A model generated the notes under the pieces. That model had not been told where the DNA came from, did not search any database, and saw nothing but the letters and a program-made list of their open reading frames with translations. The translations under genes and the position numbers were made by a program. Source: an uncultured Actinomycetota bacterium (GTDB lineage Bacteria; Actinomycetota; Acidimicrobiia; Spongiisociales; UBA4744). From it: a DNA stretch of 64,000 bases. The DNA lies in assembly GCA_963718995.1 (NCBI GenBank), contig CAVRAP010000006.1:5795-69794 (forward strand), in the 5' to 3' direction. Shown here piece after piece: positions 15,938 to 45,980 of the stretch. Positions within the stretch are counted from its first letter, which is position 1; the number at the start of each line of letters is the position of its first letter.

Positions 15938-16123
15938 GGTTTCCAGTTTCCAGTTTCCAGTTCGTCCAGTAACCAGTTTCCAGTTATCAGTTATCAGTTA
16001 TCGGGTATCGGTATCAGAGAGTGGTATGCCGTTCGCTGGCTACTGGCTACTGGCTACCGGCTACTGGCTACTGGCTACTGGCTGACTGGCTGCTGGCTGC
16101 TGGCTACTGGCTACTGGCTACTG
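15938..16123. repeat. CAGT-core heptanucleotide tandem repeat array, inverted two-arm organisation
   Basis: Left arm (ccagttt)x3 then (tcagtta)x3 on the top strand. Right arm (ctggcta/ctggctg)x~12, which is (ccagtag)n on the bottom strand. Runs up to the stop codon of the MmpL gene. Confidence 0.9.
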
Positions 16124-20097: not shown

Positions 20098-21198
20098 TCA
20101 GGTACCGGCAACGAGAAGCGGAACCTGAAGCTCCTCCTTTGCCAGCCCGCCGTGATAGCCGGTCAGCCGCTTGTCCATGAAGCGGGGGATCAACAGGCGG
20201 CCCGGATCGGCAAGCAGGACCTTGTCCGGCAGTCGTCCGGCCAGGTCCGGATGGTCCCGGCCGGGCCCCAACCAGGTCCGGTACTCCGATGTCTCAACGA
20301 CCCGGCATGGCAGGCCGACGAGCGCCTTCGAGAGCTCGGCGTCGAACCGGCGCACCAGCACCGCTCGGGGGTCGCCGTAGAATTCTGGTCCCATCCGGTG
20401 CGGGATGAACGCCTTGTCGCCTTCGGCGTAGTCGATGTGCCCGTGATCGGCAGTTCCCACCATCACCGCGTGAGCCGGGAGGGCCGAGGCAATGCGGTCC
20501 CAGACGGCGGCCGCCGTCGAGATGGCTGCGGCGTACTCATCAGAGCCCTGGCCACCCACGTGGGCGGCCACGTCAACATTCGGGAAGTACGTGAAGATGA
20601 ACCGGCCGGGCACCGCAGCCAGCTGGGCGGTGGCGTCGATGATCTCGTTGATGGTCCACACGGCTTCATTGCGACATCCTCGATAGAGAACCCGGCTGAG
20701 CGGACTGTCCTGAAAGTTGCCGGGCTGCACGGTGATCGGCTCAATGTCATGGGCTCGCAAGCGCTGCCACAGGTTGGGGGCCGGCAGGAAGGAATCGTGG
20801 TCGAGGCGTACGGCTTCCCCCCAGGGTGTCGTCCACTTCAAGGTGTTCACGACCTGACCGGCGGCGGGAACATACAGTTGGTGCCCGATCAGACCGTGGG
20901 TCCCGGGCGCCAGCCCGGTGGCGATGGTCGCCAGGTTGGCGCTGGTCGTGGTGGGAAAGACCGCGTCGAGAGCCGCGGTCCGGGCGTTGCGGAGGGAAGC
21001 CGCCCCGGGGTGCTGGAGCTGGGCATCGCCCAAGCCGTCGAAAAGGACGAGCACGTAGGTGGCGGCCTCCGGGATGTGCCCGGCGAGGTGAGCGTGCAGC
21101 CGCTCGGCCGGGGCAGATCCGGTCAGGCGATGTTCGAGCTCCGCCATCAGGTTGAGCAGGCTGCCGCCGGCGTAGTCGGGAATGGAGGGTTCAATCAC
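20098..21198 (-). CDS. alkaline phosphatase-family (nucleotide pyrophosphatase/phosphodiesterase-like) metalloenzyme
   Basis: Metal-ligand pattern 'FDGLGD...T(T)(S)...DHGH' typical of the AP superfamily. GTG start at 21198. Confidence 0.6.
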   Translation of the reverse strand: MIEPSIPDYAGGSLLNLMAELEHRLTGSAPAERLHAHLAGHIPEAATYVLVLFDGLGDAQLQHPGAASLRNARTAALDAVFPTTTSANLATIATGLAPGTHGLIGHQLYVPAAGQVVNTLKWTTPWGEAVRLDHDSFLPAPNLWQRLRAHDIEPITVQPGNFQDSPLSRVLYRGCRNEAVWTINEIIDATAQLAAVPGRFIFTYFPNVDVAAHVGGQGSDEYAAAISTAAAVWDRIASALPAHAVMVGTADHGHIDYAEGDKAFIPHRMGPEFYGDPRAVLVRRFDAELSKALVGLPCRVVETSEYRTWLGPGRDHPDLAGRLPDKVLLADPGRLLIPRFMDKRLTGYHGGLAKEELQVPLLVAGT

Positions 21199-21307
21199 AG
21201 TTTCCAGTTTCCAGTTATCAGTTGTCAGTTATCAGTCATCAGTCATCAGTCATGAGTCATGAGTTATCAGTTGCCAGTTGCCAGTTGCCAGTTGCCAGTT
21301 GCCAGTC
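21197..21307. repeat. CAGT-core heptanucleotide tandem repeat array (unidirectional)
   Basis: (ccagttt)(ccagtta)(tcagttg)(tcagtta)(tcagtca)x3(tgagtca)x2...(gccagtt)x5. Lies in the divergent promoter region between 21198(-) and 21455(+). Confidence 0.9.
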
Positions 21308-23791: not shown

Positions 23792-24157
23792 GTGAGTCCG
23801 TACTTTCAGGACTACGTGACGGTGGCAGCGTTTGGAGCGCTGGGCGTCGTGCTGGTGCTCGCCCTGCTGGGGATAGCTTCCATCTTTCGCCCTTCTCATC
23901 CGCATCCCGCCAAGCTCCTGACGTACGAGTGCGGAGTCGATCCGGTCGGGGGGGATTGGAGCCAGTCGCAGGTCAGGTACTACATCTTTGGCCTGCTGTT
24001 CGTGATCTTCGACGTCGAAGCGGTGTTCATTTTTCCGTGGGCCATCATCCTCGAGCGACTCGGTGTGTTCGGCCTGGTTGAGATGGTGATCTTCATATTC
24101 ATCCTGCTCCTGGGCCTGATCTATGCCATCCGCAAAGGAGTGCTCAAGTGGGAGTGA
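23792..24157 (+). CDS. nuoA: NADH-quinone oxidoreductase subunit A
   Basis: 3-TM protein with 'YECGVDP' and '[15 protein letters not shown]' motifs. GTG start. Confidence 0.85.
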
Positions 24158-24645
24158 TCGAACGATTCGGGATGCCAAAACCGGTGTCCTGGCTGCTCAA
24201 CTGGGGTCGTAAGTACTCGCTGTGGATGTATCAGTTCGGGTTGGCTTGCTGTGCCATCGAAATGATCGCTGCCGCCGGTCCCCGCTTCGACATGATGAGG
24301 TTCGGGATCATCCCGCTGCCCGCTTCTCCCCGGCAGGCCGACCTGATGATCGTGGCCGGCACCGTGACCGACAAGATGGCACCCGCCGTGCGCCGCCTGT
24401 ACGAGCAGATGCCTGATCCCAAGTATGTGATCTCGATGGGATCGTGCGCCAACTGCGGCGGTCCGTACTGGGACTCGTACTCGGTGACGAAAGGAGTCGA
24501 TCAGATCATCCCCGTTGACGTGTACGTACCCGGTTGCCCGCCCCGACCGGAAGCCTTGATGGAAGGGATCGTTCTGCTCCAGAAGAAGATCCAAAACGAG
24601 AATCTCCAGGAGAAGTGGAAAGAGCGTGCCGAGCAACCCGTCTAA
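24148..24645 (+). CDS. nuoB: NADH-quinone oxidoreductase subunit B (N2 cluster)
   Basis: '[10 protein letters not shown]', '[10 protein letters not shown]' and 'VPGCPPRPE'. Confidence 0.9.
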
Positions 24646-25207
24646 TACCGCGGATTCTCAAGAGGTGCTCTTCGCCTATGCGGAGCACGTCGCCGACGTT
24701 CTCGACGCGGACCCGGTGGTAGCTCGTCATGGAACGGTCAAGGCGCACGTTCCGAGGGAGCGCTGGATCGAGGCCCTCACCAAGGCCCGGGACGATCTCG
24801 GTCTGGTTTTCTTCTCGTGGTTGTCCGCCATCGACTGGTCGAATCAGGTCGAGGTGGGGGATCCCCCTGCTGAGGAAGTCGACGAACGTCTCGAACTTCT
24901 GTGCACGATCAGCGACCTGTCCGAAGGCAAGCGGGTCACCATCTCCACCGAGGTTTCCAAGGACGACCCGACGATGCCGACGGCCACCGGCGTGTACCGG
25001 GGCGCCAACTGGCACGAACGGGAGACCTTCGAGATGTTCGGGATCGACTTCACCGGCCACCCCGACCTGAAAAAGCTCTACCTGGTTGAGGATTTCGAGG
25101 GGAACCCGCTTCGTAAGTCGTTCCCGTTGCTGAGCCGCGAAGTGAAACCGTGGCCCGGCACGGTGGATGTCGAGGCGATGCCGTCTACCGAAAATCCGGA
25201 GGCGTGA
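24626..25207 (+). CDS. nuoC: NADH-quinone oxidoreductase subunit C
   Basis: 30-kDa subunit fold: '[30 protein letters not shown]'. Confidence 0.85.
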
Positions 25208-26391
25208 TGGACCACGAAGCCGCCATGGCTCTCTCGGAAGTGTCCGTCTCCATCGAACTCGAAACTCCGGAGATGACGCTGAACATCGGACCACAGCACC
25301 CGTCAACGCACGGGGTTCTCCGCCTGGTTGCCCAGGTCGACGGCGAGCGGGTCCGCGATATCAAGCCGGTCATCGGGTACATGCACCGCGGGTACGAGAA
25401 GATCTCGGAAGTCCGTACGTACCCGCAGATCACCGCTCTGATCAATCGCCTCGACTGGGTCGCCGGGTACGCAAATGAAATCCCTTTCATCGTCGGCGCC
25501 GAGCGGCTGATGGAACTGGAAGTTCCCCCGCGCGCCCAGTACATCCGGCTGATCCTCACCGAGATGGCCCGGATCTCTTCCCATCTGATCTTTTGTGGTT
25601 CCTACCCGCTCGAGTTGGGGGCCGGGACCCCCATGTTCTTCGCTCTGCGGGAAAGGGAGCGGGTGCTCGATCTCATGGAGGCGGTCACCGGCGGCCGTTT
25701 CCACCTCAACTTCAACCGCCTGGGCGGTGTTAAACCGACAGCCGGGGCCGGTTCCAGCACCCGCAAGCAAATCCAGGACCTTCCCAAGGGTTTCTACGAG
25801 GGCACCCGGGCCGCCATGGGGCGGGTGCTCGGCGTGTGCGACGAACTGGACCAGCTCATCAGCGGCAACGAGATCCTCTTTGCGCGTACCAAAGGTGTCG
25901 GGGTGATGACACCGGAGCAAGCGGCCGCCTACGGGGTCTCCGGTCCCAATCTGCGCGGGTCGGGAGTTGCCTTCGATCTCCGCAAAGTCGAGCACTACCT
26001 GCCGTACGACCAGCTGGATTTCAACGTGATAACCCGCCAGGAAGGCGATTGCTACGCCCGGTACGCCGTGCGGGTCGACGAGGTCCGGGAGTCGGCCAAG
26101 ATGATCATCCAGGCGATCGATTCGATTCCCTCAGGACCGTTGCAGGCGAAGGTGCCGAAGATCATCAAGGTGCCAAAAGGCGAGACCTATATGCGGGCGG
26201 AGAACCCCAAAGGTGAGATGGGCTACTACATCGTCTCCGAGGGCGGCACCGGACCGTACCGCTTGAAGATCCGCACCGCCTCCTTCTCCAACATCTCCGT
26301 GCTGTCCGAACTCATGGAAGGTGCTTTGATCCCCGACATCGTTGCCATCATGGGCAGTTTCGACTTCGTCCTCGGCGAGGTGGATCGATGA
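25207..26391 (+). CDS. nuoD: NADH-quinone oxidoreductase subunit D (49-kDa)
   Basis: 'LNIGPQHPSTHGVLRL', 'YMHRGYEKI' and the C-terminal 'RTASF' region. ATGA overlap with nuoC. Confidence 0.9.
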   Translation: MDHEAAMALSEVSVSIELETPEMTLNIGPQHPSTHGVLRLVAQVDGERVRDIKPVIGYMHRGYEKISEVRTYPQITALINRLDWVAGYANEIPFIVGAERLMELEVPPRAQYIRLILTEMARISSHLIFCGSYPLELGAGTPMFFALRERERVLDLMEAVTGGRFHLNFNRLGGVKPTAGAGSSTRKQIQDLPKGFYEGTRAAMGRVLGVCDELDQLISGNEILFARTKGVGVMTPEQAAAYGVSGPNLRGSGVAFDLRKVEHYLPYDQLDFNVITRQEGDCYARYAVRVDEVRESAKMIIQAIDSIPSGPLQAKVPKIIKVPKGETYMRAENPKGEMGYYIVSEGGTGPYRLKIRTASFSNISVLSELMEGALIPDIVAIMGSFDFVLGEVDR

Positions 26392-26448
26392 TGCCTGCGA
26401 CCTACGGCCGCAGGTTGACGAACTTCGTTCGTCGCTCGCTGCGCTCGA

Positions 26449-26536
26449 TCAGTTTCCAGTTTCCAGTTTCCAGTTTCCAGCAAGGAGGCGGTCCTCGATT
26501 GCGGACTGGCTACTGGCAACTGGCTACTGGCTACTG
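26449..26536. repeat. CAGT-core heptanucleotide repeat array, inverted two-arm organisation, inside the nuo cluster
   Basis: (cagtttc)x4, then 'caaggaggcggtcctcgattgcgga', then (ctggcta/ctggcaa)x4. Fills most of the 163-bp nuoD-nuoH spacer. Confidence 0.9.
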
Positions 26537-26554
26537 CTTGCCTCCGCAGGAGGC

Positions 26555-27538
26555 GAGCGTATGAACTTCTGGCTCGAGCTGGCGATCAAGCTGGTCGTGA
26601 TCGGGGCCATGATCCCGCTGACGGCCTTGGTGCTCGGCTACGGAGAGTTGAAGATCTCGGCTCACATGCAGTCCCGGATCGGCCCGTATTTCGCCGGCGG
26701 CCGGTGGGGTTGGGCGCAGCTCCTGGCCGACGGGGTGAAGTTCATTCAGAAAGAAGACATCATCCCGGACAATGCCGACCGACCGGTCTTCAAGGTCGCC
26801 CCGGTGCTCGTGATGATCTCGACTGCCACGCTCTTCGTCATTCTCCCCTTCGGCCCGGGTGACGGGTTCATTGTCCGTGACCTCAACCTCGGCATCTTCT
26901 ACGCGCTGGCGATTTCCTCGGTCGGGACCATCGGGGTCTTGATGGCCGGGTGGTCGTCCGGGAACAAGTACTCCCTGATGGGGGGTCTCCGGGCGGCGGG
27001 CCAGTTGATCGCCTACGAGTTGCCGCTCGTGCTGGCCGTAGTCGGCGTCGTGATCCAGGCGGGCACCATGTCGATGCAGGGCATCGTCGATGCGCAGATC
27101 GCCCAGGGATGGCCGTATGTGTTCACCCAGTTCCTCGGGTTCTTCATCTTCCTCATTGCCGGACTGGCCGAGCTCAGTCGAACCCCGTTTGATATGCCGC
27201 TTGCCGAATCCGAGCTGATCTCCGGCTATCTGACCGAATACTCCGGTTTCCGGTTCCTCTTCTTCTACCTGGCCGAGTACGCCAGCATGTTCGCCGTTGC
27301 CGCCATCGCAACCACGTTGTTCCTCGGTGGCTATGCCTTCTGGGGCGTTTCGGCTTCCTGGACCGGGCCGATCTTCTTTGTTGGGAAGGTCTTGATGATC
27401 GGCTTCGTCATCATCTGGCTGCGCTGGACCTTCCCGCGTTTCCGTGAGGACCAACTGCAGACACTGGCCTGGAAATGGCTCATCCCGCTCGCCCTGGCCA
27501 ACATCCTCGTCACCGCGGTTCTCAAGGTGGTGTTCTGA
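26555..27538 (+). CDS. nuoH: NADH-quinone oxidoreductase subunit H
   Basis: 8-TM protein with the 'QSRIGPY...GLLQ'-type motif. RBS 'aggagg' at 26542. Trimmed from ORF 26342..27538. Confidence 0.9.
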
Positions 27539-27996
27539 TGGAACTCCGCATCCCCGGGCTCGCCAGAGGCATGTGGGTCACGTTGAAGACCCTCTTCAAG
27601 AAGCCGGTCACCATCAACTACCCCAAGGTCAAGGAAACCCCGGTGCCCCGGGCCCGCGGCGTTATCGCCCTCGACCAGGAGGCCTGCACGGTGTGCATGT
27701 TGTGCGCCCGCAACTGTCCCGACTGGTGCATCTACATTGAGGGTCACAAGGAAGAGCAGGTACCGGACAAGCCGGGCGGCCGGGTCAAGGTACGAGCCGA
27801 ACTGGACCGTTTCGACATCGATTACGCCCTCTGCATGTACTGCGGCATCTGCGTTGAGGTGTGCCCGTTCGATGCCCTCTTCTGGACCCCCGAGTATGAG
27901 TACTCCGAGTATCAGATGGGCGAAATGATGCACGACATGGACCGCCTGCAGGACTGGCTGCAGACGGTGCCGGAACCGCCGGAGTTGGAGACCTAG
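27538..27996 (+). CDS. nuoI: NADH-quinone oxidoreductase subunit I (2x[4Fe-4S])
   Basis: '[12 protein letters not shown]' and '[12 protein letters not shown]'. ATGA overlap with nuoH. Confidence 0.9.
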
Positions 27997-28590
27997 ATGG
28001 CCGACTGGATTGCCGAACCGACGAATTGGGTGTTCCTGGTTCTGGCGCTGGTGATTGCCGTGTCCGCCGTGCGGGTGGTGACGAGCACCAACGTGGTGCA
28101 TGCCGCTCTGTTTCTGGTGCTCGCCCTCGGTGGCACGGCCGGTCTCTTCCTGCTGCTCTCGGCCGAGTTTGTTGCCTGGGTGCTGGTACTCGTGTACATC
28201 GGCGCGGTGATCGTGCTGTTCCTGTTCGGGATCATGATCACCCGCGCCCCTACCGGCCCGAATATCGAAGTCGACGGCCGGCGGGCGCCGGCGGCCATGG
28301 CCGCCTTCCTCATGTTCATCGTGACCGCCGGATCGGCGTTGACGGCGTTCGGTGACCAACAGATCGCCAATCTCGGCGGCGGAACCTCGACGGAAGTCAT
28401 CGGCGAACAGTTGCTGCAGCGCTTCGTGATTCCCTTCGAGGTCGTTTCGTTCGTGCTGCTGGCCGCCCTGATCGGCGGTATCACCCTGGCCCGCAAAGAC
28501 GCTTCTCCCGCCGAAGAAGAAGCGGCGGAAGAGGCCCGGGGTACGGGGCCCGGGCCGCGCGACGGCCAACTCCCGAAGGGAGTGAGCTGA
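27997..28590 (+). CDS. nuoJ: NADH-quinone oxidoreductase subunit J
   Basis: 5-TM protein, typical position and size. Confidence 0.85.
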   Translation: MADWIAEPTNWVFLVLALVIAVSAVRVVTSTNVVHAALFLVLALGGTAGLFLLLSAEFVAWVLVLVYIGAVIVLFLFGIMITRAPTGPNIEVDGRRAPAAMAAFLMFIVTAGSALTAFGDQQIANLGGGTSTEVIGEQLLQRFVIPFEVVSFVLLAALIGGITLARKDASPAEEEAAEEARGTGPGPRDGQLPKGVS

Positions 28591-28895
28591 TGTACCTCAA
28601 CCAGTTCCTCATCCTCGGCGCTCTGCTGTTCTCGCTCGGCATCTACGGTCTGCTGGTCCGCCGCAACGCGGTGATGGTGCTGCTATCCATCGAGCTGATG
28701 CTCAACGCGGTCAACATCAACCTGATCGCTTTCGAAGCCTTCCTGCAGAACGCCGAAGTAGGCGGGCAGATCTTCGCCATCTTCGTCATCACGGTGGCGG
28801 CGGCGGAAGTCGGGGTCGGCCTGGCCATCATCTTGATGATTTTCCGGAACCGGACCTCTGCCAATATCGACGAACTCGACCTGATGAAGTGGTAA
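28590..28895 (+). CDS. nuoK: NADH-quinone oxidoreductase subunit K
   Basis: 101-aa 3-TM protein with 'LSIELMLNAVNINL'. Confidence 0.9.
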   Translation: MYLNQFLILGALLFSLGIYGLLVRRNAVMVLLSIELMLNAVNINLIAFEAFLQNAEVGGQIFAIFVITVAAAEVGVGLAIILMIFRNRTSANIDELDLMKW

Positions 28896-28899
28896 CGGC

Positions 28900-30930
28900 A
28901 TGATCTCACTCACCAACTTCGCCATCGCCGCCGCAGAAGAGACCGGGCACGCCGTCGAGTACGGAGACGGCGGCTTCCTGGCCGAGTGGGCCTGGTTGCT
29001 GGTGATTGCGCCTTTCGTCGCTTTCCTGGCGATCGTGTTCTTCGGGAAGCGCCTGCCTCGCCAGGGTGGCGAGATCGCGGTCGGCGCCATGGCCTTCGTG
29101 GCTCTCTACGCCGCCGTCCTGTTCATCATGAACGTCACCGAAGGCGTCGTTTTCGAGCACTCGGTTGAGGTTGCGAGGTTCGGGAGCTTCGCGGTTGAGT
29201 GGGGGTGGGTCGTCGACGGGCTGTCCTCGATGATGTACCTGGTGGTCGGGTTGATGTCGGTCCTGATCTTCACCTACGCCCTCGGCTACATGGAAGGCGA
29301 CGTTCGCGTCACCTGGTTCTTTGCCGCTTTCAGTCTGTTTGCCGGGTCGATGCTGCTGCTGGTTTCCGCCCCCAACCTCATCCAGTTGATCGTCGGCTGG
29401 GAAGGGGTCGGGCTTTCTTCCTACCTGTTGATCGGCCACTACTGGGAACAGAAAGAGAACTCCTCGGCGGGAATGAAGGCCTTCTACGTCAACAAGGTGG
29501 CCGACATCGGTTTGATCATCGGCGCTTTCGTGCTGGCCATCCCGGTCGGATCGTTCAAGATTTCCGTCATCCTCGACGCCGTGGTCGGGGACTCCGAATC
29601 GATGAAGACCGTTGCCATCGCCGGTGCGGTCTTGCTGTTCATCGGGGCGATGGGCAAGAGCGCCCAGTTCCCCTTTCACGTGTGGTTGCCCGACGCGATG
29701 GCAGGCCCGACTCCGGTCTCGGCGCTGATGCACGCCGCCACCATGGTCACGGCCGGCGTCTACCTCCTGGGCCGGATGTTCCCTCTGTACGCAGAAATGG
29801 CCGCCGATGCCCGTGTCCTGGTGCTGGTTGTCGGAACGATCACGCTGATCATTGCCGGGTTGTTGGCCCTGGTACAGGACGACATCAAAAAGGTGCTGGC
29901 GTACTCAACGGTGAGCCAGTTGGGTTACATGGTGGCGGCTATGGGGGCCGGTGCCTACACGGCCGGTCTCTTCCACCTGTGGACCCATGCCTTCTTCAAG
30001 GGGTTGTTGTTCCTCGGAGCCGGTTCGGTGATCCACGGCGTCCACTCCAACAACATGAGTGACATGGGCGGCCTCCGCAAGAAGATGCCCATCACCTTCG
30101 GCACCTTCGTGGCCGGCACCCTGGCGCTGGCCGGCATCTTCCCCTTCGCCGGGTTCTTCTCCAAAGATGAGATCCTCGCCGCCTTCAACTACGAGGGGTA
30201 CACGGCGGTGCTGGCCATCGGCATCATCGGCGCCTTTATCACCGCCTTCTATATGGCCCGGACCGTGTTCCTCACGTTCTACGGCACGTACAAGGGTCAC
30301 GGCGAGCCCCACGAATCGCCCCGGCTGATGACCGTGCCGATGGTGATCCTGGCCGGTCTGGCTGTGGTAGGCGGTTGGGTCAACATCCCCGGGATCTACA
30401 CCGGTTTCACCACCTGGGTCGGTACCCGGGCGCACGTCTTTGAGGAGCACCATGCCGAGAGCTTCGACTGGCCGGTCTTGGCGATGGGCCTGACCGCCGG
30501 CCTCCTCGGCATCGGCCTCGGCTACTTGCTCTTCTTCAAGGACAAGCAGACCCAGCGCGAGCGCGACACCTTCCGGGTCCCCGTGCTGTATCCCTTGCTC
30601 GAACACAAGTACTACCTGGATGACCTCTACATGGGCGGCATCGTCAACCCCATCAAGGGACCCATCGCCAGGTTCGTCAACTGGACCAACTCGTACATTT
30701 TCGACGGGATCGTCAACGGGACCGGGTTCCTCGCCAGGGCTCTGGCGGGCGTGGTGTACGGCCTGTTCGATCAGCGGGGCATCGACCTCGCCTTCAACGG
30801 GATTGCGTTCACCGCCGACGGCGCCGGCGGCAAGACGCGGCTTCTCCAAACCGGCAAGGTGCAGCAGTACGCGGGCGCCACGGTGGTCGGCGCAGCATTG
30901 CTGGTCATCGGTTTCGTAATTTTCAGATAG
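28900..30930 (+). CDS. nuoL: NADH-quinone oxidoreductase subunit L
   Basis: 676-aa antiporter-like subunit with the long C-terminal amphipathic helix region. Confidence 0.9.
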   Translation: MISLTNFAIAAAEETGHAVEYGDGGFLAEWAWLLVIAPFVAFLAIVFFGKRLPRQGGEIAVGAMAFVALYAAVLFIMNVTEGVVFEHSVEVARFGSFAVEWGWVVDGLSSMMYLVVGLMSVLIFTYALGYMEGDVRVTWFFAAFSLFAGSMLLLVSAPNLIQLIVGWEGVGLSSYLLIGHYWEQKENSSAGMKAFYVNKVADIGLIIGAFVLAIPVGSFKISVILDAVVGDSESMKTVAIAGAVLLFIGAMGKSAQFPFHVWLPDAMAGPTPVSALMHAATMVTAGVYLLGRMFPLYAEMAADARVLVLVVGTITLIIAGLLALVQDDIKKVLAYSTVSQLGYMVAAMGAGAYTAGLFHLWTHAFFKGLLFLGAGSVIHGVHSNNMSDMGGLRKKMPITFGTFVAGTLALAGIFPFAGFFSKDEILAAFNYEGYTAVLAIGIIGAFITAFYMARTVFLTFYGTYKGHGEPHESPRLMTVPMVILAGLAVVGGWVNIPGIYTGFTTWVGTRAHVFEEHHAESFDWPVLAMGLTAGLLGIGLGYLLFFKDKQTQRERDTFRVPVLYPLLEHKYYLDDLYMGGIVNPIKGPIARFVNWTNSYIFDGIVNGTGFLARALAGVVYGLFDQRGIDLAFNGIAFTADGAGGKTRLLQTGKVQQYAGATVVGAALLVIGFVIFR

Positions 30931-30943
30931 GAGGGACGAGAGC

Positions 30944-32518
30944 ATGGGGTGGTTCGATAACGGGTGGGGCTTGAGCCTGATCGTGTTCCTGCCCCTGGTA
31001 GGCGCGGTCGCCGTGCTCTTCACCCCCAAGAAAAACGAAGCGGCCATCAAGGCGCTCTCGCTCGGGTTCACCGGAGTGACCCTGGTGCTTGCCACCCTCA
31101 TGGCCATCCGGTTCGATTTCGGAAACGCCGACATGTTCCAGTTCGGAACAAGTCTCACGTGGATCGAGTCGATCAACTCCGGCTATCACATCGGCATAGA
31201 CGGGATATCACTACCCCTCCTGGTGTTGTCCGCGTTCGTCACCGTGCTGGCCGTGATCTACTCGTTCAACCACTGGCCGGAACCGCACAACCCCAAAGGG
31301 TTCATGGCGTTGACGCTGGTGCTGGCCACCGGCATGAACGGCACCTTCGTGGCGCTCGACCTGGTGCTCTTCTTCGTGTTCTTCGAACTCGTGCTGCTTC
31401 CGATGTACTTCATGATCGGGATCTGGGGCGACAAGGCCGTTATGAAGATCCCCGGTTTCAACCGGGAGGTGGAGACCCGCCTGTACGCCTCCATCAAGTT
31501 CTTCCTGTTCACCCTGTTCGGGTCGGCCTTCATGCTGCTGGGCTTCCTGGCGCTCTACTACAAGTCGGGCGAGTTCGGGACCAAGACCTTCGACATCCCT
31601 GCCCTGATCGAACTCGCACCCAACTTCACCGGAACCTTCGGGTTCCTGGTGTTTGGAGCGCTGTTCCTGGGATTCGCAGTGAAGGTGCCGATGTGGCCCT
31701 TCCACACCTGGTTGCCCGACGCCCATACCGCCGCGCCGACCGTCGGGTCCGTGCTGCTGGCCGCCGTCCTCCTGAAGCTCGGTTCCTACGGGTTCATCAG
31801 GATCAGCATCCCGATCCTGCCGGAGATGGCGCGCGAGTGGGCCCCGGCCATCGCCATCCTGGCGGTGATCGGCATCATCTACGGGTCGCTGGCGTGTCTC
31901 GCCCAGACCGATATGAAACGGCTGATCGCGTTCTCCTCGGTCGGTCACATGGGTTTTGTGATGCTCGGCATCGCCTCGATGACCCCGGTCGGCATCAACG
32001 CGGCGATCATCGGCATGGTCGCTCACGGGGTCATCACCGGCCTCTTGTTCTTCGTCGCAGGTTCGATGTCGCACCGCTACCACACCCGCGACATGGCCCG
32101 CCTGGGCGGCAACATGAAGGTCATGCCGATCATGGGTGGCATCCTCGGGTTCACCGCCATGGCCTCCCTCGGCTTGCCCGGCCTGGCCGGGTTCTGGGGC
32201 GAATTCATGGCCCTCTTCGGTGCGTACAGTCCGCTGGCCGGCCTCAACACGACACTGTTCAGGACTGCCATGGTGCTCGGCGCGATCGGCACCGTGCTGA
32301 CGGCCGGCTACATGCTGTGGATGCTGCAGAAGGTCAACCTGGGCGAACCGTCCGCCGAATGGGAAGGCAAGTCCTTCCACGACGTCGACGCGTACGAACT
32401 GACGGCCTGGGTTCCGCTGGTGGTCGTGATCGTGGCGATCGGGGTGTTCCCCCGCCTGGTGCTGGGCGCCACCAACGACGCGGTGGTTTCCATGCTGACG
32501 ACAGCGTTTGGGGGCTGA
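30944..32518 (+). CDS. nuoM: NADH-quinone oxidoreductase subunit M
   Basis: 524-aa antiporter-like subunit. Confidence 0.9.
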   Translation: MGWFDNGWGLSLIVFLPLVGAVAVLFTPKKNEAAIKALSLGFTGVTLVLATLMAIRFDFGNADMFQFGTSLTWIESINSGYHIGIDGISLPLLVLSAFVTVLAVIYSFNHWPEPHNPKGFMALTLVLATGMNGTFVALDLVLFFVFFELVLLPMYFMIGIWGDKAVMKIPGFNREVETRLYASIKFFLFTLFGSAFMLLGFLALYYKSGEFGTKTFDIPALIELAPNFTGTFGFLVFGALFLGFAVKVPMWPFHTWLPDAHTAAPTVGSVLLAAVLLKLGSYGFIRISIPILPEMAREWAPAIAILAVIGIIYGSLACLAQTDMKRLIAFSSVGHMGFVMLGIASMTPVGINAAIIGMVAHGVITGLLFFVAGSMSHRYHTRDMARLGGNMKVMPIMGGILGFTAMASLGLPGLAGFWGEFMALFGAYSPLAGLNTTLFRTAMVLGAIGTVLTAGYMLWMLQKVNLGEPSAEWEGKSFHDVDAYELTAWVPLVVVIVAIGVFPRLVLGATNDAVVSMLTTAFGG

Positions 32519-34013
32519 TTTGTCACCGGACATCGACTACCTCGCGCTGGCGCCGGAGATCACTCTGGCGGTGACGGCCGTGGTCGTCCTGTTGCTCGAC
32601 CTGTTCCTGCCTCGGAGCCAGAAGTACTGGACGGCCATCGTCGCGGTACTGGGAGTCAGCTTTGCCGCTCTTCCGCTGATCGCCCTGGCCGTCAGCGACG
32701 TCGGGACGCGGAGCATGCTCGGCGGCAGCTTCGTCGTCGATGACTTCGCCCTCGTGCTCAAGGGACTGTTCGTGGTGGCCGGGTACCTGGTGCTGCTCAT
32801 GTCGGTCAGTTACATCGAGTCCGACCGTTACTACCAGGGCGAGTACTACTTCCTGATGCTCATGTCGATTCTCGGCACCGTGGTGCTGGCCTCGTCCCGT
32901 GATCTGATCACCATGTTCATCGCCATCGAATTGGTGTCCCAGCCGATGTACCTGCTGGCCGGATGGCGCAAGGGTGACCTGCGGTCCAACGAGGCGTCGC
33001 TCAAATACTTCCTGCTCGGGGTTCTGGCCTCGGCTCTCATGCTCTACGGCATGTCGTTCGTGTACGGCCTCACGGGTGAGCTGACGTTCGCGGGCATTGC
33101 CGCAGCCGGAGCCGGAATGGCAGGCGACCCGGGATTCATCATGGCGATCCTCTTCATGATCGCCGGGTTCGGCTTCAAGGTGTCGGCCGTGCCGTTCCAC
33201 TTCTGGGCGCCGGATACGTATGAAGGCGCACCAACCCCGGTGACCGCCTACCTGTCGGTATCGTCGAAGGCGGCGGGGTTCGTGGCTTTGCTGGTGGTGC
33301 TCTATTCGGCGTTCCCGGACGCGGCCGGGGTGTGGGGCCCGGCCATCTGGATCCTGGCGGCCCTGTCGATGACGCTGGCCAACCTGACCGCTTTGCGGCA
33401 AACCAACATCGTCCGGCTGCTGGCCTACTCGTCGGTCGCCCAGGCGGGGTTCATGCTGGTGCCGTTCGCGGCGGCCGCCACGACGGATCAGATCGGGCTG
33501 GGGGAGGCCTTTGCCGCCACCGTCACCTACATCGTGATCTACGCCTTCATGAACCTGGGCGCCTTTGCGGTGGTCATTGCCGGTGCCCGCAAGACCGGCA
33601 CGGGCGATATCGAAGGTTGGGGTGGGCTTGGTTCGTACGCCCCGGGTATCGGACTTCTGGCCGGGGCTTTCTTCTTCTCCCTGGCCGGCATCCCGCCCCT
33701 GGCGGGCTGGATCGCCAAACTGGTCATGTTCAGTGCGGCTATGGGGGCCGGATCGGCCTGGATGGTGGCCCTGGCCGCGATCGCCGCAGTGAACGCGGTG
33801 ATCGCCCTCTTCTACTACGCACGGGTCGTCAAGACGATCTGGATGGACCCGGTCCCGGCCACGGCCCCCGACGAAGAGGTGCGGACCGGTCCGGTGGCGG
33901 GGTCGCTTGGCCTCGCTCTCGGACTGTCGGTGGCGGTGGTGGTGGCGGCCGGTTTCTTCCCCTCCCTCGTCACCTTCTTCTCCGATGCCACCAAGGTGCT
34001 CGCCGGCGGTTAG
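32508..34013 (+). CDS. nuoN: NADH-quinone oxidoreductase subunit N
   Basis: 501-aa antiporter-like subunit. TTG start overlaps the end of nuoM. Confidence 0.85.
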   Translation: MGADLSPDIDYLALAPEITLAVTAVVVLLLDLFLPRSQKYWTAIVAVLGVSFAALPLIALAVSDVGTRSMLGGSFVVDDFALVLKGLFVVAGYLVLLMSVSYIESDRYYQGEYYFLMLMSILGTVVLASSRDLITMFIAIELVSQPMYLLAGWRKGDLRSNEASLKYFLLGVLASALMLYGMSFVYGLTGELTFAGIAAAGAGMAGDPGFIMAILFMIAGFGFKVSAVPFHFWAPDTYEGAPTPVTAYLSVSSKAAGFVALLVVLYSAFPDAAGVWGPAIWILAALSMTLANLTALRQTNIVRLLAYSSVAQAGFMLVPFAAAATTDQIGLGEAFAATVTYIVIYAFMNLGAFAVVIAGARKTGTGDIEGWGGLGSYAPGIGLLAGAFFFSLAGIPPLAGWIAKLVMFSAAMGAGSAWMVALAAIAAVNAVIALFYYARVVKTIWMDPVPATAPDEEVRTGPVAGSLGLALGLSVAVVVAAGFFPSLVTFFSDATKVLAGG

Positions 34014-36703: not shown

Positions 36704-36746
36704 CCAGTTGCCAGTAACCAGTAATTGGCAGTTCCAGTTGCCAGAA
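36699..36746. repeat. short CAGT-core heptamer array
   Basis: 'aaccagttgccagtaaccagtaattggcagttccagttgccag' overlaps the glgB stop. Confidence 0.7.
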
Positions 36747-36761
36747 TGTGCTGGATGACTG

Positions 36762-38154
36762 ATGACTGATGGCTTTTCTCTGAAGCAGCGACTGATCGAA
36801 CAGATCCGGGTTGAGGGTCCGATGCCGTTCGAGGATTTCATGGCGGCAGCCCTCTATGACCCCGAGGATGGGTTCTTCACGTCCAAGTCTCTGCGGTCCG
36901 TCAAGTCCGGCGATTTCCTGACCAGCCCCGAAGTAAGCCCCCTCTTCGGCGAAACCCTCGCCAAGTTCGTAGACCAGGAACTCTCCACCCTCCCCCTCAC
37001 CCCCTCCCGCCGGCGGGAGGGGGAAAGAGAAACGACGCCCCGCCGCCCACGCCGGGGCAGGTGCCCTGACCGCGCGGGTCGATGCGCAGAACTCCCTCTC
37101 CCGCTGGCGGGAGAGGGTTGGGGAGAGGGTGGAAGAGGCCGCACGGAAGAAGACAGTCTCCAGCCAGGAAGACACCCCAGACTACGTCCTCCCCCGGCTC
37201 TGCCGGGGGAGGTGGCCCGGCCCAAAGGGCCGGGTCGGAGGGGGCAGGTCCCCGAACAGTCCGATCGAGAGCAGGACTCCCTCTCCCGCTGGCGGGAGAG
37301 GGTTGGGGAGAGGGTGGAACCAACCCCGCTCCTCGTCGAGGTCGGAGCCGGTTCCGGGTCGCTCCTCAAACCCCTCCTCGCCACCCTCGAGACCCCGATC
37401 GAGCCCTGGGCCGTCGAGGCATCCCCGGCCGCTCGTGAGGCTCTGGGAGAGCTGATCGATCCCGACCACATCGTCCGCACCCTCGACGATCTGCCCGACC
37501 ACTTCTCCGGCGTCGTGGTCGCCAACGAACTCCTGGACAATCTGCCGGTCGCCATCGCCGTCCGCACCGGTCATGGCTGGACGGAACGCTGGGTAGGAGT
37601 CCAAGACGATGATCTGGTCCTCGTCCCCGTCGACGCTCGCCCCGAGGTCGCCGACATGGGCCGAGCAATTCGGCCTCCCCGCCCCCGAACGAGGCCTGGT
37701 CGAGGTGCAACTGGCCGCAGCGGAGTGGCTGCAATCGATCCTGACCCGTCTCGACTCGGGAACGATCCTGTTGATCGACTACGGCGACACCGCCGAGAAC
37801 CTGGAGAAGCGGCGGGTGGAGGGAACCCTCCGCACCTACCGGGCCCACCACCTCGGCCCCCACCCCCTCGACGAACCGGGAGAGACCGACATCACCGCCG
37901 ACGTCAACTTCACGGCGCTGATCGATCGAGCCGTGCAACTGGGAGCGAGCATCGAGTACCACCGCCAGGACGACTTCCTCGACCAGTTCGGGTTGCGAGC
38001 CCGCCTCAGCAAACTCCGCCACCAAGAACTGGACCTGGCCCGCGACGGCGACCCGATGGAGCGATTGAAGGTGCGGTCCACCCGGACCGAAGCCGAGACG
38101 CTGCTCCACCCGCGTGGCCTGGGCGACTTCCGTGTCCTGGTGGTCCGAAAGTGA
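36762..38154 (+). CDS. MidA/NDUFAF7-like SAM-dependent methyltransferase (DUF185), interrupted in frame by a repeat insertion and carrying an apparent frameshift near 37660
   Basis: N-terminal 'PMPFEDFMAAALYDPEDGFFTSK...GDFLTSPEVSPLFGE', SAM site 'LVEVGAGSGSL' and a C-terminal part in ORF 37609..38154. The 606-aa ORF 36762..38582 is the N-terminal part followed by an out-of-frame run-on. Confidence 0.65.
36990..37330. repeat. three copies of a GC-rich palindromic element (core cctctcccgc-tg-gcgggagagg) inserted in frame in the MidA-like gene
   Basis: 'ctccctctcccgctggcgggagagggttggggagagggtggaa' occurs at about 37086 and about 37270. A variant 'ccctcccgccggcgggaggggg' occurs at about 37005. 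The insert translates to 'LPLPLAGEGWGEGG'. Confidence 0.8.
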
Positions 38155-38204
38155 GGGGCCGCCCAACTGGGCGGCCCCTCGACGATTGTTGGTTTGAGCG
38201 ATGC

Positions 38205-40430
38205 TTACGGCGTAAGCAACAGGGCTGCGTCGGCGGTGATGAACCCTGCACCGTCGGCGTCGCCAGCGTCACCTTTGGCAACACCCCAACAAATCTCCTC
38301 CGAAGCCCCCGAAGGTTCGAGGAGCACGGTCCTGCAACCATATTCCATCCCAATGGCAGCCTCCTCAAGGATGGTTTCGACCTCCCACTGTTCGAGTCCC
38401 GGGTTCTTCTGCAGCATGAGGGCTGCGATGCCGGCAACGTGGGGGCTGGCCATCGACGTGCCTCCGAGGAAGAAGTAATTCGTCTTTCCCCGGTTCAGTT
38501 GGTAGGGGCCGACGACCCACGACCCGGGGAGCGGCCACATCCAGATCCTGACCATCTAGCTCCCGACTGGAGAAGTCGGTGATGTAGTAGTCGCCAACGT
38601 CCGTCGGGTCCGCAACGTTCACGTTCCACCACCAGGAGCGATTCCCATCTGGCCACTCGCCAACCCAGCCGCTGGCCGCGACCGAGATCACCGGTTCGTA
38701 GGCACCCGGATAACCCATTCCGAGGTTGCCCTCGTTGCCTGCCGATGTGACGACAATCACTCCGTTCTCAATGGCGTAGTCGTTGGCTGCCCTCTCTACG
38801 GGCTCCTGGACAGGACCGCCGAGACTCATGTTGATGACGACTGGGCCGTCGAGGACACCATCCTTCTTCAAGTTGGCGACGTAGGTAATGCCAGCCGCTA
38901 CCACCGATGACCCCCATCCGGAGCCATTGTCGCGGCACTGTGACCGGGATGACCGTCGCCATCGGGGCTACGCCGTTGATCGGCGTGCCGCCCAGGCTGT
39001 AGCCCAGGATGGTGCTGGTCACGTGGGTGCCATGCGAGTTGGTGTCATGTTCCCACTTATTGGGCTGTTCGGAGATGTTTCCCTGCCCTCCTCCACCGCC
39101 GCCAAATGACTTCGCCAGGTCGGTCGCGATCCGCTCTTCGGGGAGGTTGCCCCACGTGTGCCATATACCACCGGTGTCGATCACGGACGTCAACGGCGTT
39201 GACCACGACTGGAATAACGCTTGGTAGAGCCCTGCGATTCCTTCAGGGGCGGTACGTTCCATCAGAGGAAGGAAGTCGCTGGGGACTGCCGTCTGCGCCA
39301 CCGATAGAGCCGTTCGCGACCTGATGATTGACCCTCAATGAACGGCTTGTCACCACCGTTGCTGCGAAGAAACCGTCAGATCCCGAAGGATGCTGCAGCA
39401 TTCACAGCGGCGGAGAGGTCATCGTCGATGGCTGACCGTAGCTCGAACCGAGGGACATGTTGATGGTGTCGATCAGGTCCTTGGCTTTACGGTCCACGTC
39501 GGGTCGACTGCGAACTCCATGCCCTGGATGAGCGCAATTCCCGAGCAAGATGTCGAAACGGACGAGCAAACCTTCACGGCGTACAGCTCGACTCCTGGAG
39601 CAACGCCGTTTTCGCCGCCGATGATGTCGGCGACATGGGTTCCGTGTCCGCCTCCGGGTCCGTCATCCGGCGGATAACGTCATCTGGTTCCTCGAGCGCG
39701 TTGCCCCTACCAACCCAGTTGGATCCAACGAAGTCGTAGCCTCCGACAACCTTGGCGGTCGGGAACGTGCCATCTTCGACCACTGTCGGGTTGTCGTTGG
39801 CGAAGTCGATACATCAGCTGGATTGCCAATGGGGTGCCACCGAGGGCGGCGTGGTAGTAGTCGATGCCGCTGTCGAGCACCGCGACCTTGACTCCAGATC
39901 CGTCGACGCCAGCGTTCTGAACGGCTGCTGCCGCCGATATAGGGAACCGTTTCGCTCAGGTCGAGTTCGTAATTGCCAACTTCCTTGATTCGCAGCAGAC
40001 CGATGAGTCGGAAGCCAGGTCGGTGAGCTGAGCAGCGTCGATCTTACGAACACTGCGTTTAGGACTCTCTGCGTACCGGCGAGCTCCTTGGCACCTGTCG
40101 CCGTCTCAGGCTGGCCAGGAATTGGTCTGCTCTTGCTGGGACCTCAACGAGGGCTTGCCGCGGCCACGGCTTGCCGCACTCGGCCACGGAGGCCGGTGAG
40201 CGCTCAACCTGATGCTGACGTCAATCTCGCCCGCGTCGCTCGACTCGAGAACGTCTTGTCGGCGGCGCTGGCCGTTATCGGCGAGTCCAGTTTGAGACCT
40301 CATCGAATCTGGCTCGATCGACTCGATCGGTGCTGCCTCTTCGCTCCGACGGTACGGCGAGTGCCAACATGGTCAAGAGCGCGACGATCAGTACAACGAA
40401 ACGTTTCACGAGATGCCCTCCTCGTATCTC
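38205..40430 (-). pseudogene. subtilisin-like (S8) serine protease, disrupted by multiple frameshifts
   Basis: The catalytic triad is split across frames: 'VIDTGG' and 'HGTHVTS' in 38768..39301, and 'GTSMASPHVAG' in 38205..38555. A putative signal peptide 'KRFVVLIVALLTMLALAVPSE' sits in 40275..40553. At least four frame changes. Confidence 0.55.
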
Positions 40431-42039: not shown

Positions 42040-42350
42040 GCCGCTGCGGTACTTGCCACCCTCTCCGCGTCGCCGCCTGTGGCAGCGACGCGCCTCTCCC
42101 GCTTGCGGGAGAGGCTGGGAAGGCGTGGTGTGTGTTGGTTGGGTGGGGCGGTCTCGCGGGAGGATGTCTTGCCACCCTCTCCGCTTCGCCGCCTGTGGCA
42201 GCGACGCGCCTCTCCCGCTTGCGGGAGAGGCTGGGAAGGCGGGGTGTGTGTTGGTTGGGTGGGGCGGTCTCGCGGGAGGATGTCTTTTCACCCTCTCCGC
42301 TTCGCCGCCTGTGGCAGCGACGTGCCTCTCCCGCCGGCGGGAGAGGCAAG
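42040..42350. repeat. tandem array (~2.7 x 118 bp) of GC-rich palindromic element containing cctctcccgc-tt-gcgggagagg
   Basis: Unit 'caccctctccgc.tcgccgcctgtggcagcgacgcgcctctcccgcttgcgggagaggctgggaaggcg.ggtgtgtgttggttgggtggggcggtctcgcgggaggatgtctt' is repeated. Confidence 0.85.
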
Positions 42351-45887: not shown

Positions 45888-45980
45888 GTCCCGCCGCCGG
45901 GCGGCGGGGCGTACTTCGTACGGATCGAAGTACCAGGTACGAAGTACAAGATACGTGAACGAGCGAAGCGAGCGAACCTT

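What the first reader, a model, noticed from the sequence alone, without database searches (positions are those of the whole stretch)
23792..34013. Eleven-gene complex I cluster (nuoABCD-HIJKLMN) without the NADH-dehydrogenase module NuoEFG
nuoD ends at 26391 and nuoH starts at 26555. The spacer between them holds only a heptamer-repeat element and no nuoE/F/G. Eleven-subunit complexes of this kind are known from cyanobacterial/plastid NDH-1 and Fpo-like enzymes, which use ferredoxin or F420H2 rather than NADH. The window separately holds a bc-type complex with its own NAD(P)H-binding flavoprotein. Together they suggest an unusual split between NAD(P)H oxidation and quinone reduction in this organism.
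Basis: partly seen in the sequence, partly recalled or inferred. Interest (0 to 1): 0.6.

Follow-up and report, generated by a model that had tools for sequence, protein, structure and literature searches.

The report
Second, NADH-module-less complex I operon
This soil actinobacterium (class Acidimicrobiia) has an intact 11-gene complex I-like proton pump with no NADH-oxidising subunits; this is a known second copy in Actinobacteria that usually sits beside a normal 14-gene complex I, and its electron donor is unknown.

Summary
Window 23792-34013 holds eleven contiguous, intact genes, nuoABCD-HIJKLMN. The 169-bp nuoD-nuoH spacer holds only a heptamer-repeat hairpin, and the 64-kb window has no NuoE/F/G homologue. 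All 80 related Acidimicrobiia loci, from soil genomes to marine Ca. Actinomarina, show the same D-to-H adjacency, and dN/dS is 0.01-0.10.

NuoD and NuoH are not canonical actinobacterial types: their best solved-structure matches are ferredoxin-dependent NDH-1 subunits, and NuoD falls outside the canonical clade. However, this is an already described EFG-less paralogue (Actinomarinales, Streptomyces nuo2). In relatives it lies on the same contig as a complete 14-gene nuoA-N, only 31-57% identical. It therefore does not show that the organism lacks an NADH complex I.

I could not test whether the window's own genus keeps the 14-gene copy. The proposed link to the flavoprotein/cytochrome b genes has no support.

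One feature I found described only in piericidin-producing Streptomyces: the quinone-ligand tyrosine (Thermus Nqo4 Tyr87) is tryptophan here. It is invariant in this lineage and defines a moderately supported actinobacterial clade.

Verdict: a new member of a known kind, of modest interest.

The parts
23792..24157 (+). nuoA (121 aa), membrane subunit
   Evidence: PF00507, 1.2e-35. Same length as the called gene in L001.
24148..24645 (+). nuoB (165 aa), carries cluster N2
   Evidence: PF01058 and NF005012, 245 bits. Cys34, Cys35, Cys100 and Cys130 align with the tandem-Cys N2 ligand pattern.
24626..25207 (+). nuoC (193 aa)
   Evidence: PF00329, 1.3e-34.
25207..26391 (+). nuoD (394 aa), quinone-site subunit. 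Trp84 replaces the quinone-ligand Tyr. It also has a 13-aa insertion and lacks a 23-aa segment of canonical NuoD.
   Evidence: PF00346, 1.6e-83. Residue-level alignment to Thermus Nqo4 and to NdhH. Trp is invariant in 82 loci (window included) and 120 database homologues. No Cys at the NiFe-ligand positions.
26392..26560 (+). nuoD-nuoH spacer with a heptamer-repeat hairpin: (CAGTTTC)n at 26450-26480 and (ACTGGCT)n at 26505-26536. The nuoH ribosome-binding site GGAGG lies at about 26550.
   Evidence: The repeat is absent from the same spacer in the closest relative, L002, and is replaced by other heptamers in L003 and L005. No Rfam match.
26561..27538 (+). nuoH (325 aa)
   Evidence: PF00146, 4.9e-106. 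Best solved-structure matches are NDH-1 NdhA.
27538..27996 (+). nuoI (152 aa), short form with two CxxCxxCxxxCP motifs
   Evidence: TIGR01971, 101 bits. Motifs at residues 50 and 99. The 14-gene-type NuoI of relatives is 207-214 aa.
27997..28590 (+). nuoJ (197 aa)
   Evidence: PF00499, 2.2e-34.
28590..28895 (+). nuoK (101 aa), both membrane glutamates present
   Evidence: PF00420, 7.3e-28. Sequence SIELM...AAAEVG.
28900..30930 (+). nuoL (676 aa), antiporter-like subunit
   Evidence: NF005141, 621 bits, above its cut-off. WEGVG and K..FPFHVWLPDA motifs.
30944..32518 (+). nuoM (524 aa), antiporter-like subunit
   Evidence: TIGR01972, 562.7 bits.
32508..34013 (+). nuoN (501 aa), antiporter-like subunit
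   Evidence: PF00361, 1.1e-65.
36762..38582 (+). NDUFAF7-like methyltransferase (PF02636), a probable assembly or modification factor. The gene model is uncertain.
   Evidence: PF02636, 2e-15. Homologues lie 55-1056 bp after nuoN in 12 relatives. The same association is published for Actinomarina (bioRxiv 10.1101/2021.02.01.429150).
20098..21198 (-). PF01663 phosphodiesterase-family gene upstream on the opposite strand, a conserved neighbour of the operon. Its role in the system is unknown.
   Evidence: PF01663, 3.5e-17. tblastn homologue present in 74 of the fetched loci. Directly upstream of nuoA in L086, and second gene upstream in L001.

Best explanation
[quoted passage not shown] It is the actinobacterial EFG-less paralogue, the 'Nuo11' or 'nuo2' type.

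Proposed mechanism:
- A donor other than NADH docks on the exposed NuoI/NuoB/NuoC/NuoD surface. Reduced ferredoxin is the most likely donor. F420H2 delivered through a separately encoded adaptor is second.
- Electrons pass through the two NuoI [4Fe-4S] clusters and NuoB cluster N2 to menaquinone. The menaquinone is bound in a modified pocket (His kept, Tyr replaced by Trp, Asp replaced by Glu).
- The three antiporter-like subunits pump protons.

The enzyme most probably works alongside a canonical 14-subunit NADH:menaquinone oxidoreductase encoded elsewhere in the genome. It does not replace it.

What is shown and what is inferred:
- Shown: gene content, intactness, cofactor ligands, purifying selection, paralogy, and coexistence of the two clusters in relatives.
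- Inferred: the donor, the acceptor, and the presence of the 14-gene cluster in this particular genome.
For: **Gene content and intactness**
- Eleven intact genes.
- N2 and 2x[4Fe-4S] ligands are present, as are the conserved Glu/Lys motifs in K, L, M and N.
- dN/dS is 0.013-0.103 for every gene against a 93% relative.

**Conservation of the layout**
- All 80 related loci (68-97% NuoD identity) have ABCD followed by H, with a gap of at most 286 bp.
- None of these loci has NuoF within 10 kb.

**Coexistence with a 14-gene cluster**
- The 14-gene and 11-gene clusters lie on one contig in two relatives.
- Four more loci show a second nuoN or nuoM-nuoN about 6-7 kb upstream.
- One further contig (48,244 bp) appears to carry both an 11-type NuoD and a NuoF, judged by matching contig length.
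- The two paralogue sets are 31-48% identical for H-N against L082 and 30-57% for A-M against L085.

**Affinity of the subunits**
- Window D and H match NDH-1 best, while the 14-type D and H match M. smegmatis best.
- In an NJ tree NuoD lies outside the canonical clade, in a Trp87 clade that also contains Dermatophilaceae sequences. Bootstrap support is 69/100.

**Literature**
- PMC7771536, bioRxiv 10.1101/2021.02.01.429150, PMC8388888 and PMC11238625.
Against: - No donor module or ferredoxin-docking subunit (NdhS/V/O, FpoF) is encoded beside the cluster, so the donor is inference only.
- In mutagenesis work cited by PMC4758237, Tyr87-to-Trp severely reduces decylubiquinone reduction. Normal quinone reduction therefore cannot be assumed.
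- The 14-gene cluster was not found within 23.8 kb upstream or 30 kb downstream of this cluster, the range in which relatives carry it. Its presence elsewhere in this genus could not be checked.
Confidence: 0.7

Rival explanations
1. The 11-subunit enzyme is this organism's only complex I. NAD(P)H is oxidised elsewhere, for example by the flavoprotein associated with the cytochrome b genes at about 9.6-12.2 kb. The respiratory chain therefore separates NAD(P)H oxidation from quinone reduction.
For: - No nuoEFG in 64 kb.
- Relatives place the 14-gene cluster 6-23 kb upstream, but in this genus that region holds other genes.
- A GltD-like NAD(P)-binding/[4Fe-4S] protein sits next to a cytochrome b6-like gene.
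Against: - Coexistence with a 14-gene cluster is seen wherever both could be examined, and it is published (PMC7771536; PMC8388888).
- The flavoprotein/cytochrome b unit is 12 kb away and separated from the nuo cluster by FTR1, methyltransferase, MMPL and TetR genes.
- Only L004 keeps that neighbourhood.
- The flavoprotein reading frame is broken near 10230.
Confidence: 0.12
2. A shared N-module. NuoEFG from the 14-gene operon also docks on this Q-module, making a second NADH dehydrogenase isozyme with a different membrane arm and quinone site.
For: [quoted passage not shown]
- Differential subunit assembly has been proposed for Streptomyces nuo2 (PMC8388888).
Against: - The 14-gene cluster of relatives already has its own full set of partners.
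- The docking subunits are only 30-41% identical between paralogues (NuoC 30%, NuoI 35%, NuoD 41%).
- This NuoI is 55-60 residues shorter.
- NuoD lacks a 23-aa segment present in every sequence of the canonical clade.
Confidence: 0.1
3. An Fpo-like F420H2 dehydrogenase, as suggested for the Actinomarinales orthologue.
For: - Proposed in PMC7771536.
- F420 is widespread in Actinobacteria (stated in that paper).
- NuoD shares the 23-aa deletion with the FpoD model, giving a single-stretch alignment.
Against: - Every Fpo model scores far below its cut-off: FpoD 351.6 against 600, FpoH 265 against 475, FpoL 363 against 1050.
- No gene near the cluster matched the FrhB_FdhB families that FpoF belongs to, in the window or in the loci whose gene calls carry Pfam hits. 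Several window ORFs had no Pfam hit at all.
- Fpo keeps Tyr87 but lacks His38 (PMC4758237). This protein shows the opposite pattern.
Confidence: 0.12

Closest known systems
The truncated 11-gene nuo cluster of Ca. Actinomarinales (Acidimicrobiia), described in PMC7771536 and bioRxiv 10.1101/2021.02.01.429150
   Same: - Orthologous: NuoD is 69-70% identical.
- Same gene order, nuoABCDHIJKLMN.
- An NDUFAF7-like gene and htpX lie downstream.
   Different: - In Actinomarina the 14-gene cluster, an iron ABC transporter and heliorhodopsin lie just upstream. Here the upstream region holds other genes, and no 14-gene cluster is seen in the 23.8 kb upstream within the window.
- This genus has a 169-bp repeat-bearing D-H spacer. 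In many Actinomarina loci the gap is 0-6 bp.
Streptomyces nuo2 genes (nuoA2, B2, D2, H2-N2), PMC8388888
   Same: - A second, EFG-less set of nuo genes beside a full nuoA-N in an actinobacterium.
- The Trp87 NuoD clade found here also contains Actinomycetales/Dermatophilaceae proteins.
   Different: - The Streptomyces set lacks nuoC2 and has nuoD2 apart from the operon.
- Here all eleven genes are contiguous and intact.
- Direct orthology to Streptomyces NuoD2 was not tested.
11-subunit complex I-like enzymes of Firmicutes, Chlorobi and Dehalococcoides (Moparthi & Hagerhall 2011; PMC11238625)
   Same: - Same 11-gene layout.
- No N-module, unknown donor, ferredoxin suspected.
- NuoD lacks the 23-aa segment of canonical NuoD.
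   Different: - Those enzymes are mostly described in anaerobes or phototrophs as the only complex I. Here the host encodes an aa3-type oxidase and probably a second, canonical complex I.
- Most of those NuoDs keep Tyr87: 58 of the segment-lacking representatives have Tyr and 33 have Trp.
Cyanobacterial and plastid NDH-1 (ferredoxin:plastoquinone oxidoreductase)
   Same: - Eleven homologous core subunits and no NuoEFG.
- Best solved-structure match for this NuoD (6hum_H) and NuoH (7eu3_A, 6hum_A).
   Different: - No NdhS/V/O ferredoxin-docking subunits or NdhL-Q subunits were seen in the window.
- NdhH keeps Tyr87 and the 23-aa segment.
- NdhH, NdhI and NdhF models score far below their cut-offs.

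Membership tests
[quoted passage not shown] | Contiguous nuoABCDHIJKLMN with no nuoE, F or G in the operon | tested here: met
   The D-H spacer is 169 bp.
[quoted passage not shown] | NuoD has lost the NiFe-hydrogenase cysteine ligands but keeps Q-site residues. NuoB has tandem-Cys N2. NuoI has two [4Fe-4S] motifs. | tested here: met
   GPQHPSTHG and ...DFVLGEVDR contain no Cys. NuoB has Cys34, 35, 100 and 130. NuoI has 2x CxxCxxCxxxCP. Exception: Tyr87 is Trp.
[quoted passage not shown] | No N-module genes anywhere in the genome (the definition used in PMC4758237) | not testable with these tools
   - Only 64 kb of this genome is available.
- Relatives do carry nuoEFG, in a separate complete 14-gene operon.
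- Attempts to reach the genus genome-wide failed.
Canonical 14-subunit NADH:quinone oxidoreductase | NuoE, F and G encoded within the operon between nuoD and nuoH | tested here: not met
Canonical 14-subunit NADH:quinone oxidoreductase | NuoD reaches the equivalog score and groups with canonical NuoD | tested here: not met
   - TIGR01962 scores 423.9, below the 459.35 cut-off, in two stretches. The relatives' 14-type NuoD scores 542.3.
- The NJ tree places window NuoD outside the canonical clade.
Fpo F420H2 dehydrogenase | Subunits reach the Fpo model cut-offs, and FpoF/FpoO are present | tested here: not met
   - FpoD scores 351.6 against 600, FpoH 265 against 475, FpoI 52 against 180, FpoL 363 against 1050.
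- No FpoF-like gene was found among the window ORFs scanned. The genome beyond the window was not tested.
Photosynthetic NDH-1 | Ferredoxin-docking subunits NdhS/V/O and the NdhL-Q subunits | tested here: inconclusive
   None of the window ORFs scanned gave such a hit, and several small ORFs have no Pfam match. NdhH, NdhI and NdhF models score below cut-off. The rest of the genome was not seen.
Actinobacterial second nuo cluster (nuo2 / Actinomarinales truncated nuo) | An EFG-less nuo paralogue that coexists with a full nuoA-N in the same genome | tested here: inconclusive
   - Met in relatives with 71-77% identical NuoD on contigs CAZNDH010000008.1 and JBFHAT010000020.1, and orthology to Actinomarina is clear.
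- Coexistence in this genome itself was not testable.

The most novel reading that the evidence does not exclude
The Trp87 NuoD clade marks a functionally distinct class of 11-subunit complex I-like enzymes in aerobic Actinobacteria. Its quinone chemistry would be altered: naturally insensitive to piericidin and rotenone, adapted to a different acceptor, or running in reverse to make low-potential reductant. In this genus the enzyme may have become the sole complex I after loss of the 14-gene paralogue.
Probability: 0.15. Interest if true: 0.6.

Novelty: new member of a known kind. Interest (0 to 1): 0.3.

Why it matters
The electron donor and physiological role of N-module-less complex I remain an open question (PMC11238625). 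These data add three points:
- The enzyme is conserved under strong purifying selection across a whole class of mostly aerobic Actinobacteria, from soil genomes to streamlined marine Actinomarina.
- It is a deep paralogue of the canonical enzyme, not a degraded copy.
- Its quinone-ligand tyrosine is invariably tryptophan. PMC4758237 calls this change 'unique or very rare' and links it to piericidin resistance.

This gives a concrete, testable handle on function through inhibitor sensitivity and donor specificity. For genome annotation, the practical message is that an 11-gene nuo operon in Actinobacteria should not be read as 'no NADH complex I'.

Tried and rejected
1. **Exact-protein look-ups of the window's NuoK and NuoD.** Neither is on record, so the source assembly could not be walked.

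2. **Matching contig lengths between the NuoF and NuoD hit lists.**
   - The aim was to find NuoF on a contig of the window's genus.
   - Two contigs (79,595 and 48,244 bp) carry both proteins, but they belong to relatives at 76-77% identity.
   - None of the genus contigs (76,616; 189,892; 693,227; 1,583,671 bp) appears in the 120 hits listed.

3. **NuoF P0261 on contig_7785 of ENA record ERZ25039603.**
   - This is the same ENA record as the 93% relative's contig_6121, so it looked like direct proof.
   - I rejected it after a tetranucleotide control. In known same-genome pairs the partner cluster ranks 1st or 2nd of 52. L001 ranks only 25th for contig_7785.
   - The GC gap is 4.5 points, against 2.3-2.8 in the known pairs.
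   - The ENA record is probably the whole soil metagenome rather than one genome.

4. **Metagenome scan with that NuoF.** It was saturated by generic motifs, and the best hit was only 63% identical.

5. **Heptamer arrays as a lineage marker.** They occur in 26 of 90 loci across many soil Acidimicrobiia, so they are not specific to the genus.

6. **Rfam and promoter/terminator scans of the cluster.** Nothing informative.

7. **A functional link to the flavoprotein/cytochrome b genes.** Rejected for lack of conserved neighbourhood.

Full report
**Observation**

The window is 62% G+C DNA. Its closest relatives are soil metagenome-assembled genomes of the class Acidimicrobiia (Actinomycetota), with NuoD 92-97% identical in five species-level relatives.

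Pfam and NCBIfam identify eleven consecutive + strand genes, nuoA, B, C, D, H, I, J, K, L, M and N, between 23792 and 34013. Seven gene lengths equal the called genes of a 93% relative exactly, and three differ by 3-4 residues.

nuoD ends at 26391. nuoH starts at the ATG at 26561, after a GGAGG, and not at 26555. The 169-bp spacer cannot hold a gene. It contains (CAGTTTC)x4.4 and the near-complementary (ACTGGCT)x4.6, which fold into a long imperfect hairpin with z = -5.1. NuoE, NuoF and NuoG from a related genome find nothing in the 64 kb.

**Is the cluster functional?**

- NuoB keeps the tandem-Cys N2 ligands.
- NuoI keeps both CxxCxxCxxxCP motifs.
- NuoK keeps both membrane glutamates.
- NuoL, M and N keep the TM5 Glu and the K...HxWLPDA motifs.
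- Against the 93% relative, dN/dS is 0.013-0.103 for all eleven genes, with dS of 0.56-1.1.

The cluster is therefore an expressed, selected enzyme and not a decaying operon.

**Conservation of the layout**

A scan of one genome per species returned 80 loci with NuoD 68-97% identical, running from soil Acidimicrobiia to marine Ca. Actinomarina. In every locus nuoD is followed by nuoH, with a gap of 0-286 bp, and none has a NuoF homologue within 10 kb.

Two neighbours recur:
- A PF01663 phosphodiesterase-family gene upstream on the opposite strand, found in 74 loci.
- An NDUFAF7-like methyltransferase (PF02636) just downstream, found at stringent threshold in 12 relatives. In the window it lies 2.7 kb downstream, followed by htpX.

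This matches the published Actinomarina context (bioRxiv 10.1101/2021.02.01.429150).

**It is a paralogue, not the only complex I, at least in relatives**

- Contig CAZNDH010000008.1 carries a complete nuoABCDEFGHIJKLMN. About 6 kb downstream it carries an 11-gene cluster whose NuoD was listed at 77% identity to the window's.
- Contig JBFHAT010000020.1 carries nuoEFGHIJKLMN and, about 23 kb away, the 11-gene cluster.
- Four further loci show a second nuoN or nuoM-nuoN about 6-7 kb upstream.
- One more contig (48,244 bp) appears to hold both an 11-type NuoD and a NuoF, judged by matching contig length.
- The two sets are only 31-48% identical for subunits H-N and 30-57% for A-M, so they are deep paralogues.

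The literature agrees:
- Ca. Actinomarinales have two nuo clusters, one lacking EFG (PMC7771536).
- Streptomycetes have nuoA-N plus nuoA2, B2, D2 and H2-N2 (PMC8388888).
- EFG-less 11-subunit enzymes are widespread and have no known donor (PMC11238625; PMC4758237).

**Affinity of the subunits**

| Subunit | Window (11-gene type) best solved structures | Relative's 14-gene type best solved structures |
|---|---|---|
| NuoD | NdhH 6hum_H 327.8 bits; Thermus Nqo4 318; M. smegmatis only 257.6 | M. smegmatis 456.7; Thermus 441.6; NdhH about 312 |
| NuoH | Only NDH-1 NdhA at E<1e-62 (226-234 bits) | M. smegmatis NuoH 345.5 |
| NuoB | Uninformative: mitochondrial PSST 206, NdhK 186, Thermus 184 | not run |

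Window NuoD also falls below the TIGR01962 equivalog cut-off, whereas the 14-type NuoD passes it.

I built an NJ tree from 115 sequences. These comprised full-length members of the 150 best 50%-identity cluster representatives, plus Thermus Nqo4 and the 14-type NuoD.
- Window NuoD falls in a clade of seven sequences, with bootstrap support of 69/100.
- That clade is separate from the canonical clade, which holds Thermus and the 14-type NuoD.
- One member cluster of the clade is annotated Dermatophilaceae/Actinomycetales.

That criterion is not met, so the cluster is a genuine 11-subunit lineage.

**An altered quinone site**

The residue-level alignment shows the following:
- His38 of Thermus Nqo4 is kept, in GPQHPSTHG.
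- The quinone-ligand Tyr87 (RMDY) is Trp84 here (RLDW).
- Asp139 is Glu, Phe146 is Met, and Asp401 is kept.
- There is a 13-residue insertion after GGVK.
- A 23-residue segment (Nqo4 314-337) is missing.

How widely the tryptophan is found:
- Trp is invariant in all 82 loci (window included) and in the 120 closest database proteins.
- The 14-type NuoD of a relative has RMDY and keeps the segment.
- Among the 150 representatives, Trp occurs in 33. All 33 lack the segment, and two are archaeal C/D fusions.

PMC4758237 reports Tyr87-to-Trp as 'unique or very rare', seen in piericidin-producing Streptomyces. It notes that the same mutation severely lowers decylubiquinone activity and confers resistance to rotenone and piericidin. 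I did not find this variant described for the Acidimicrobiia enzyme. It is the most interesting detail here.

**Mechanism**

Shown:
- An intact Q-module and P-module.
- No N-module in cis.

Inferred:
- A non-NADH donor docks on the NuoI/B/C/D surface that NuoEFG covers in the canonical enzyme.
- Electrons run through N6a, N6b and N2 to menaquinone.
- Protons are pumped.

Ferredoxin is favoured as the donor because of the NDH-1 affinity of D and H, and because of the precedent in other 11-subunit enzymes. F420H2 has been proposed in print, but every Fpo model scores far below its cut-off, and the His38/Tyr87 pattern is the reverse of Fpo's. A shared N-module is possible, but the docking subunits are only 30-41% identical to their 14-type counterparts, and NuoI is 55-60 residues shorter.

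**What could not be settled**

I could not determine whether this genome itself has a 14-gene cluster.
- It is absent from the 23.8 kb upstream and 30 kb downstream of the cluster, where relatives keep it.
- One apparent hit was a NuoF on contig_7785, in the same ENA record as the 93% relative's contig. A tetranucleotide control discounted it. The partner cluster ranks 1st or 2nd of 52 in known same-genome pairs, but ranks 25th here.
- From the pattern in relatives and in the literature, I estimate about 0.8 that a 14-gene cluster exists elsewhere in this genome.

**The flavoprotein and cytochrome b genes**

A GltD-like NAD(P)-binding/[4Fe-4S] protein lies next to a cytochrome b6/ExtP-like gene at about 9.6-12.2 kb. 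The two are 12 kb from nuoA, behind unrelated genes. Only one relative (L004) keeps that neighbourhood, and the flavoprotein reading frame is broken. Nothing ties these genes to the nuo cluster.

**Verdict**

The cluster is a new member of an already described kind, the actinobacterial EFG-less nuo paralogue. It carries a conserved Tyr-to-Trp change at the quinone site that deserves an experiment.

Noticed in passing
window 15939-16123, 21198-21306, 26450-26536, 36692-36771, 45926-45955, 49209-49239, 49679-49735, 53086-53106; also L001, L003, L005, L011, L012, L015, L019, L088: A family of intergenic heptamer-repeat elements. Each has an array such as (CAGTTNC)n, often followed by a near-complementary array such as (ACTGGCT)n, and these pairs form long imperfect hairpins.
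- The pattern CAGTNNNCAGTNNNCAGT matches 28 times in the window, against 0 expected by chance.
- Different loci use different heptamers (CGTACTT/CGAAGTA, GGTACGA, GGAACGA).
- The element is absent from the nuoD-nuoH spacer of the closest relative (L002).
- Period-7 arrays occur in 26 of 90 loci, mostly soil Acidimicrobiia, with two A/T-rich arrays in Actinomarina loci.
- There is no Rfam match, and the function is unknown.
   Followed up: partly
window 25456-25458 (NuoD Trp84): The quinone-ligand tyrosine of complex I (Thermus Nqo4 Tyr87) is tryptophan. This is invariant in all 82 loci and 120 database homologues. It defines a clade that also includes Dermatophilaceae/Actinomycetales NuoD proteins.
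   Followed up: yes
window 34629-35720 and 35717-36703: A GlgB-like branching enzyme (CBM_48 + alpha-amylase + Alpha-amylase_C) is split into two overlapping ORFs. In the relative L001 it is one 689-aa gene. This is either a frameshift or a long-read assembly error.
   Followed up: partly
window ~9620-12173: A GltD-like NAD(P)-binding flavoprotein with a 2x[4Fe-4S] domain lies directly upstream of a cytochrome b6/ExtP-like gene (264 bits against the ExtP model, cut-off 290).
- The flavoprotein reading frame is broken near 10230.
- The minus-strand ORF 9449-10192 is probably spurious.
- A monohaem cytochrome c gene follows at 13190-13651.
   Followed up: partly
window 1971-8653: Aerobic respiration genes: cytochrome c oxidase subunits I and II (6410-8653, - strand), two SCO1/SenC genes and a PCuAC copper chaperone. 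These indicate an aerobic host.
   Followed up: no
window 42052-42347, 51026-51328, 52062-52429: Three large, near-perfect tandem repeats:
- 116 bp x 2.6
- 72/149 bp x 2-4
- 48 bp x 7.7 at 99% identity, inside the minus-strand ORF 51446-52621
   Followed up: no
L084 900-2850 and 5264-6371; L003 11295-17234: Several long-read MAG relatives show nuo genes broken into two or three pieces (nuoE, F, H, J, L, M). These are probably homopolymer errors in the assemblies. Single frameshifts in such assemblies should not be read as pseudogenes.
   Followed up: no
window 21455-22597: A gene with an ethylbenzene-dehydrogenase gamma-like haem domain (PF09459, 1.2e-39) lies between the phosphodiesterase and hydrolase genes upstream of nuoA. 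tblastn detected it in only two sequences in total.
   Followed up: no
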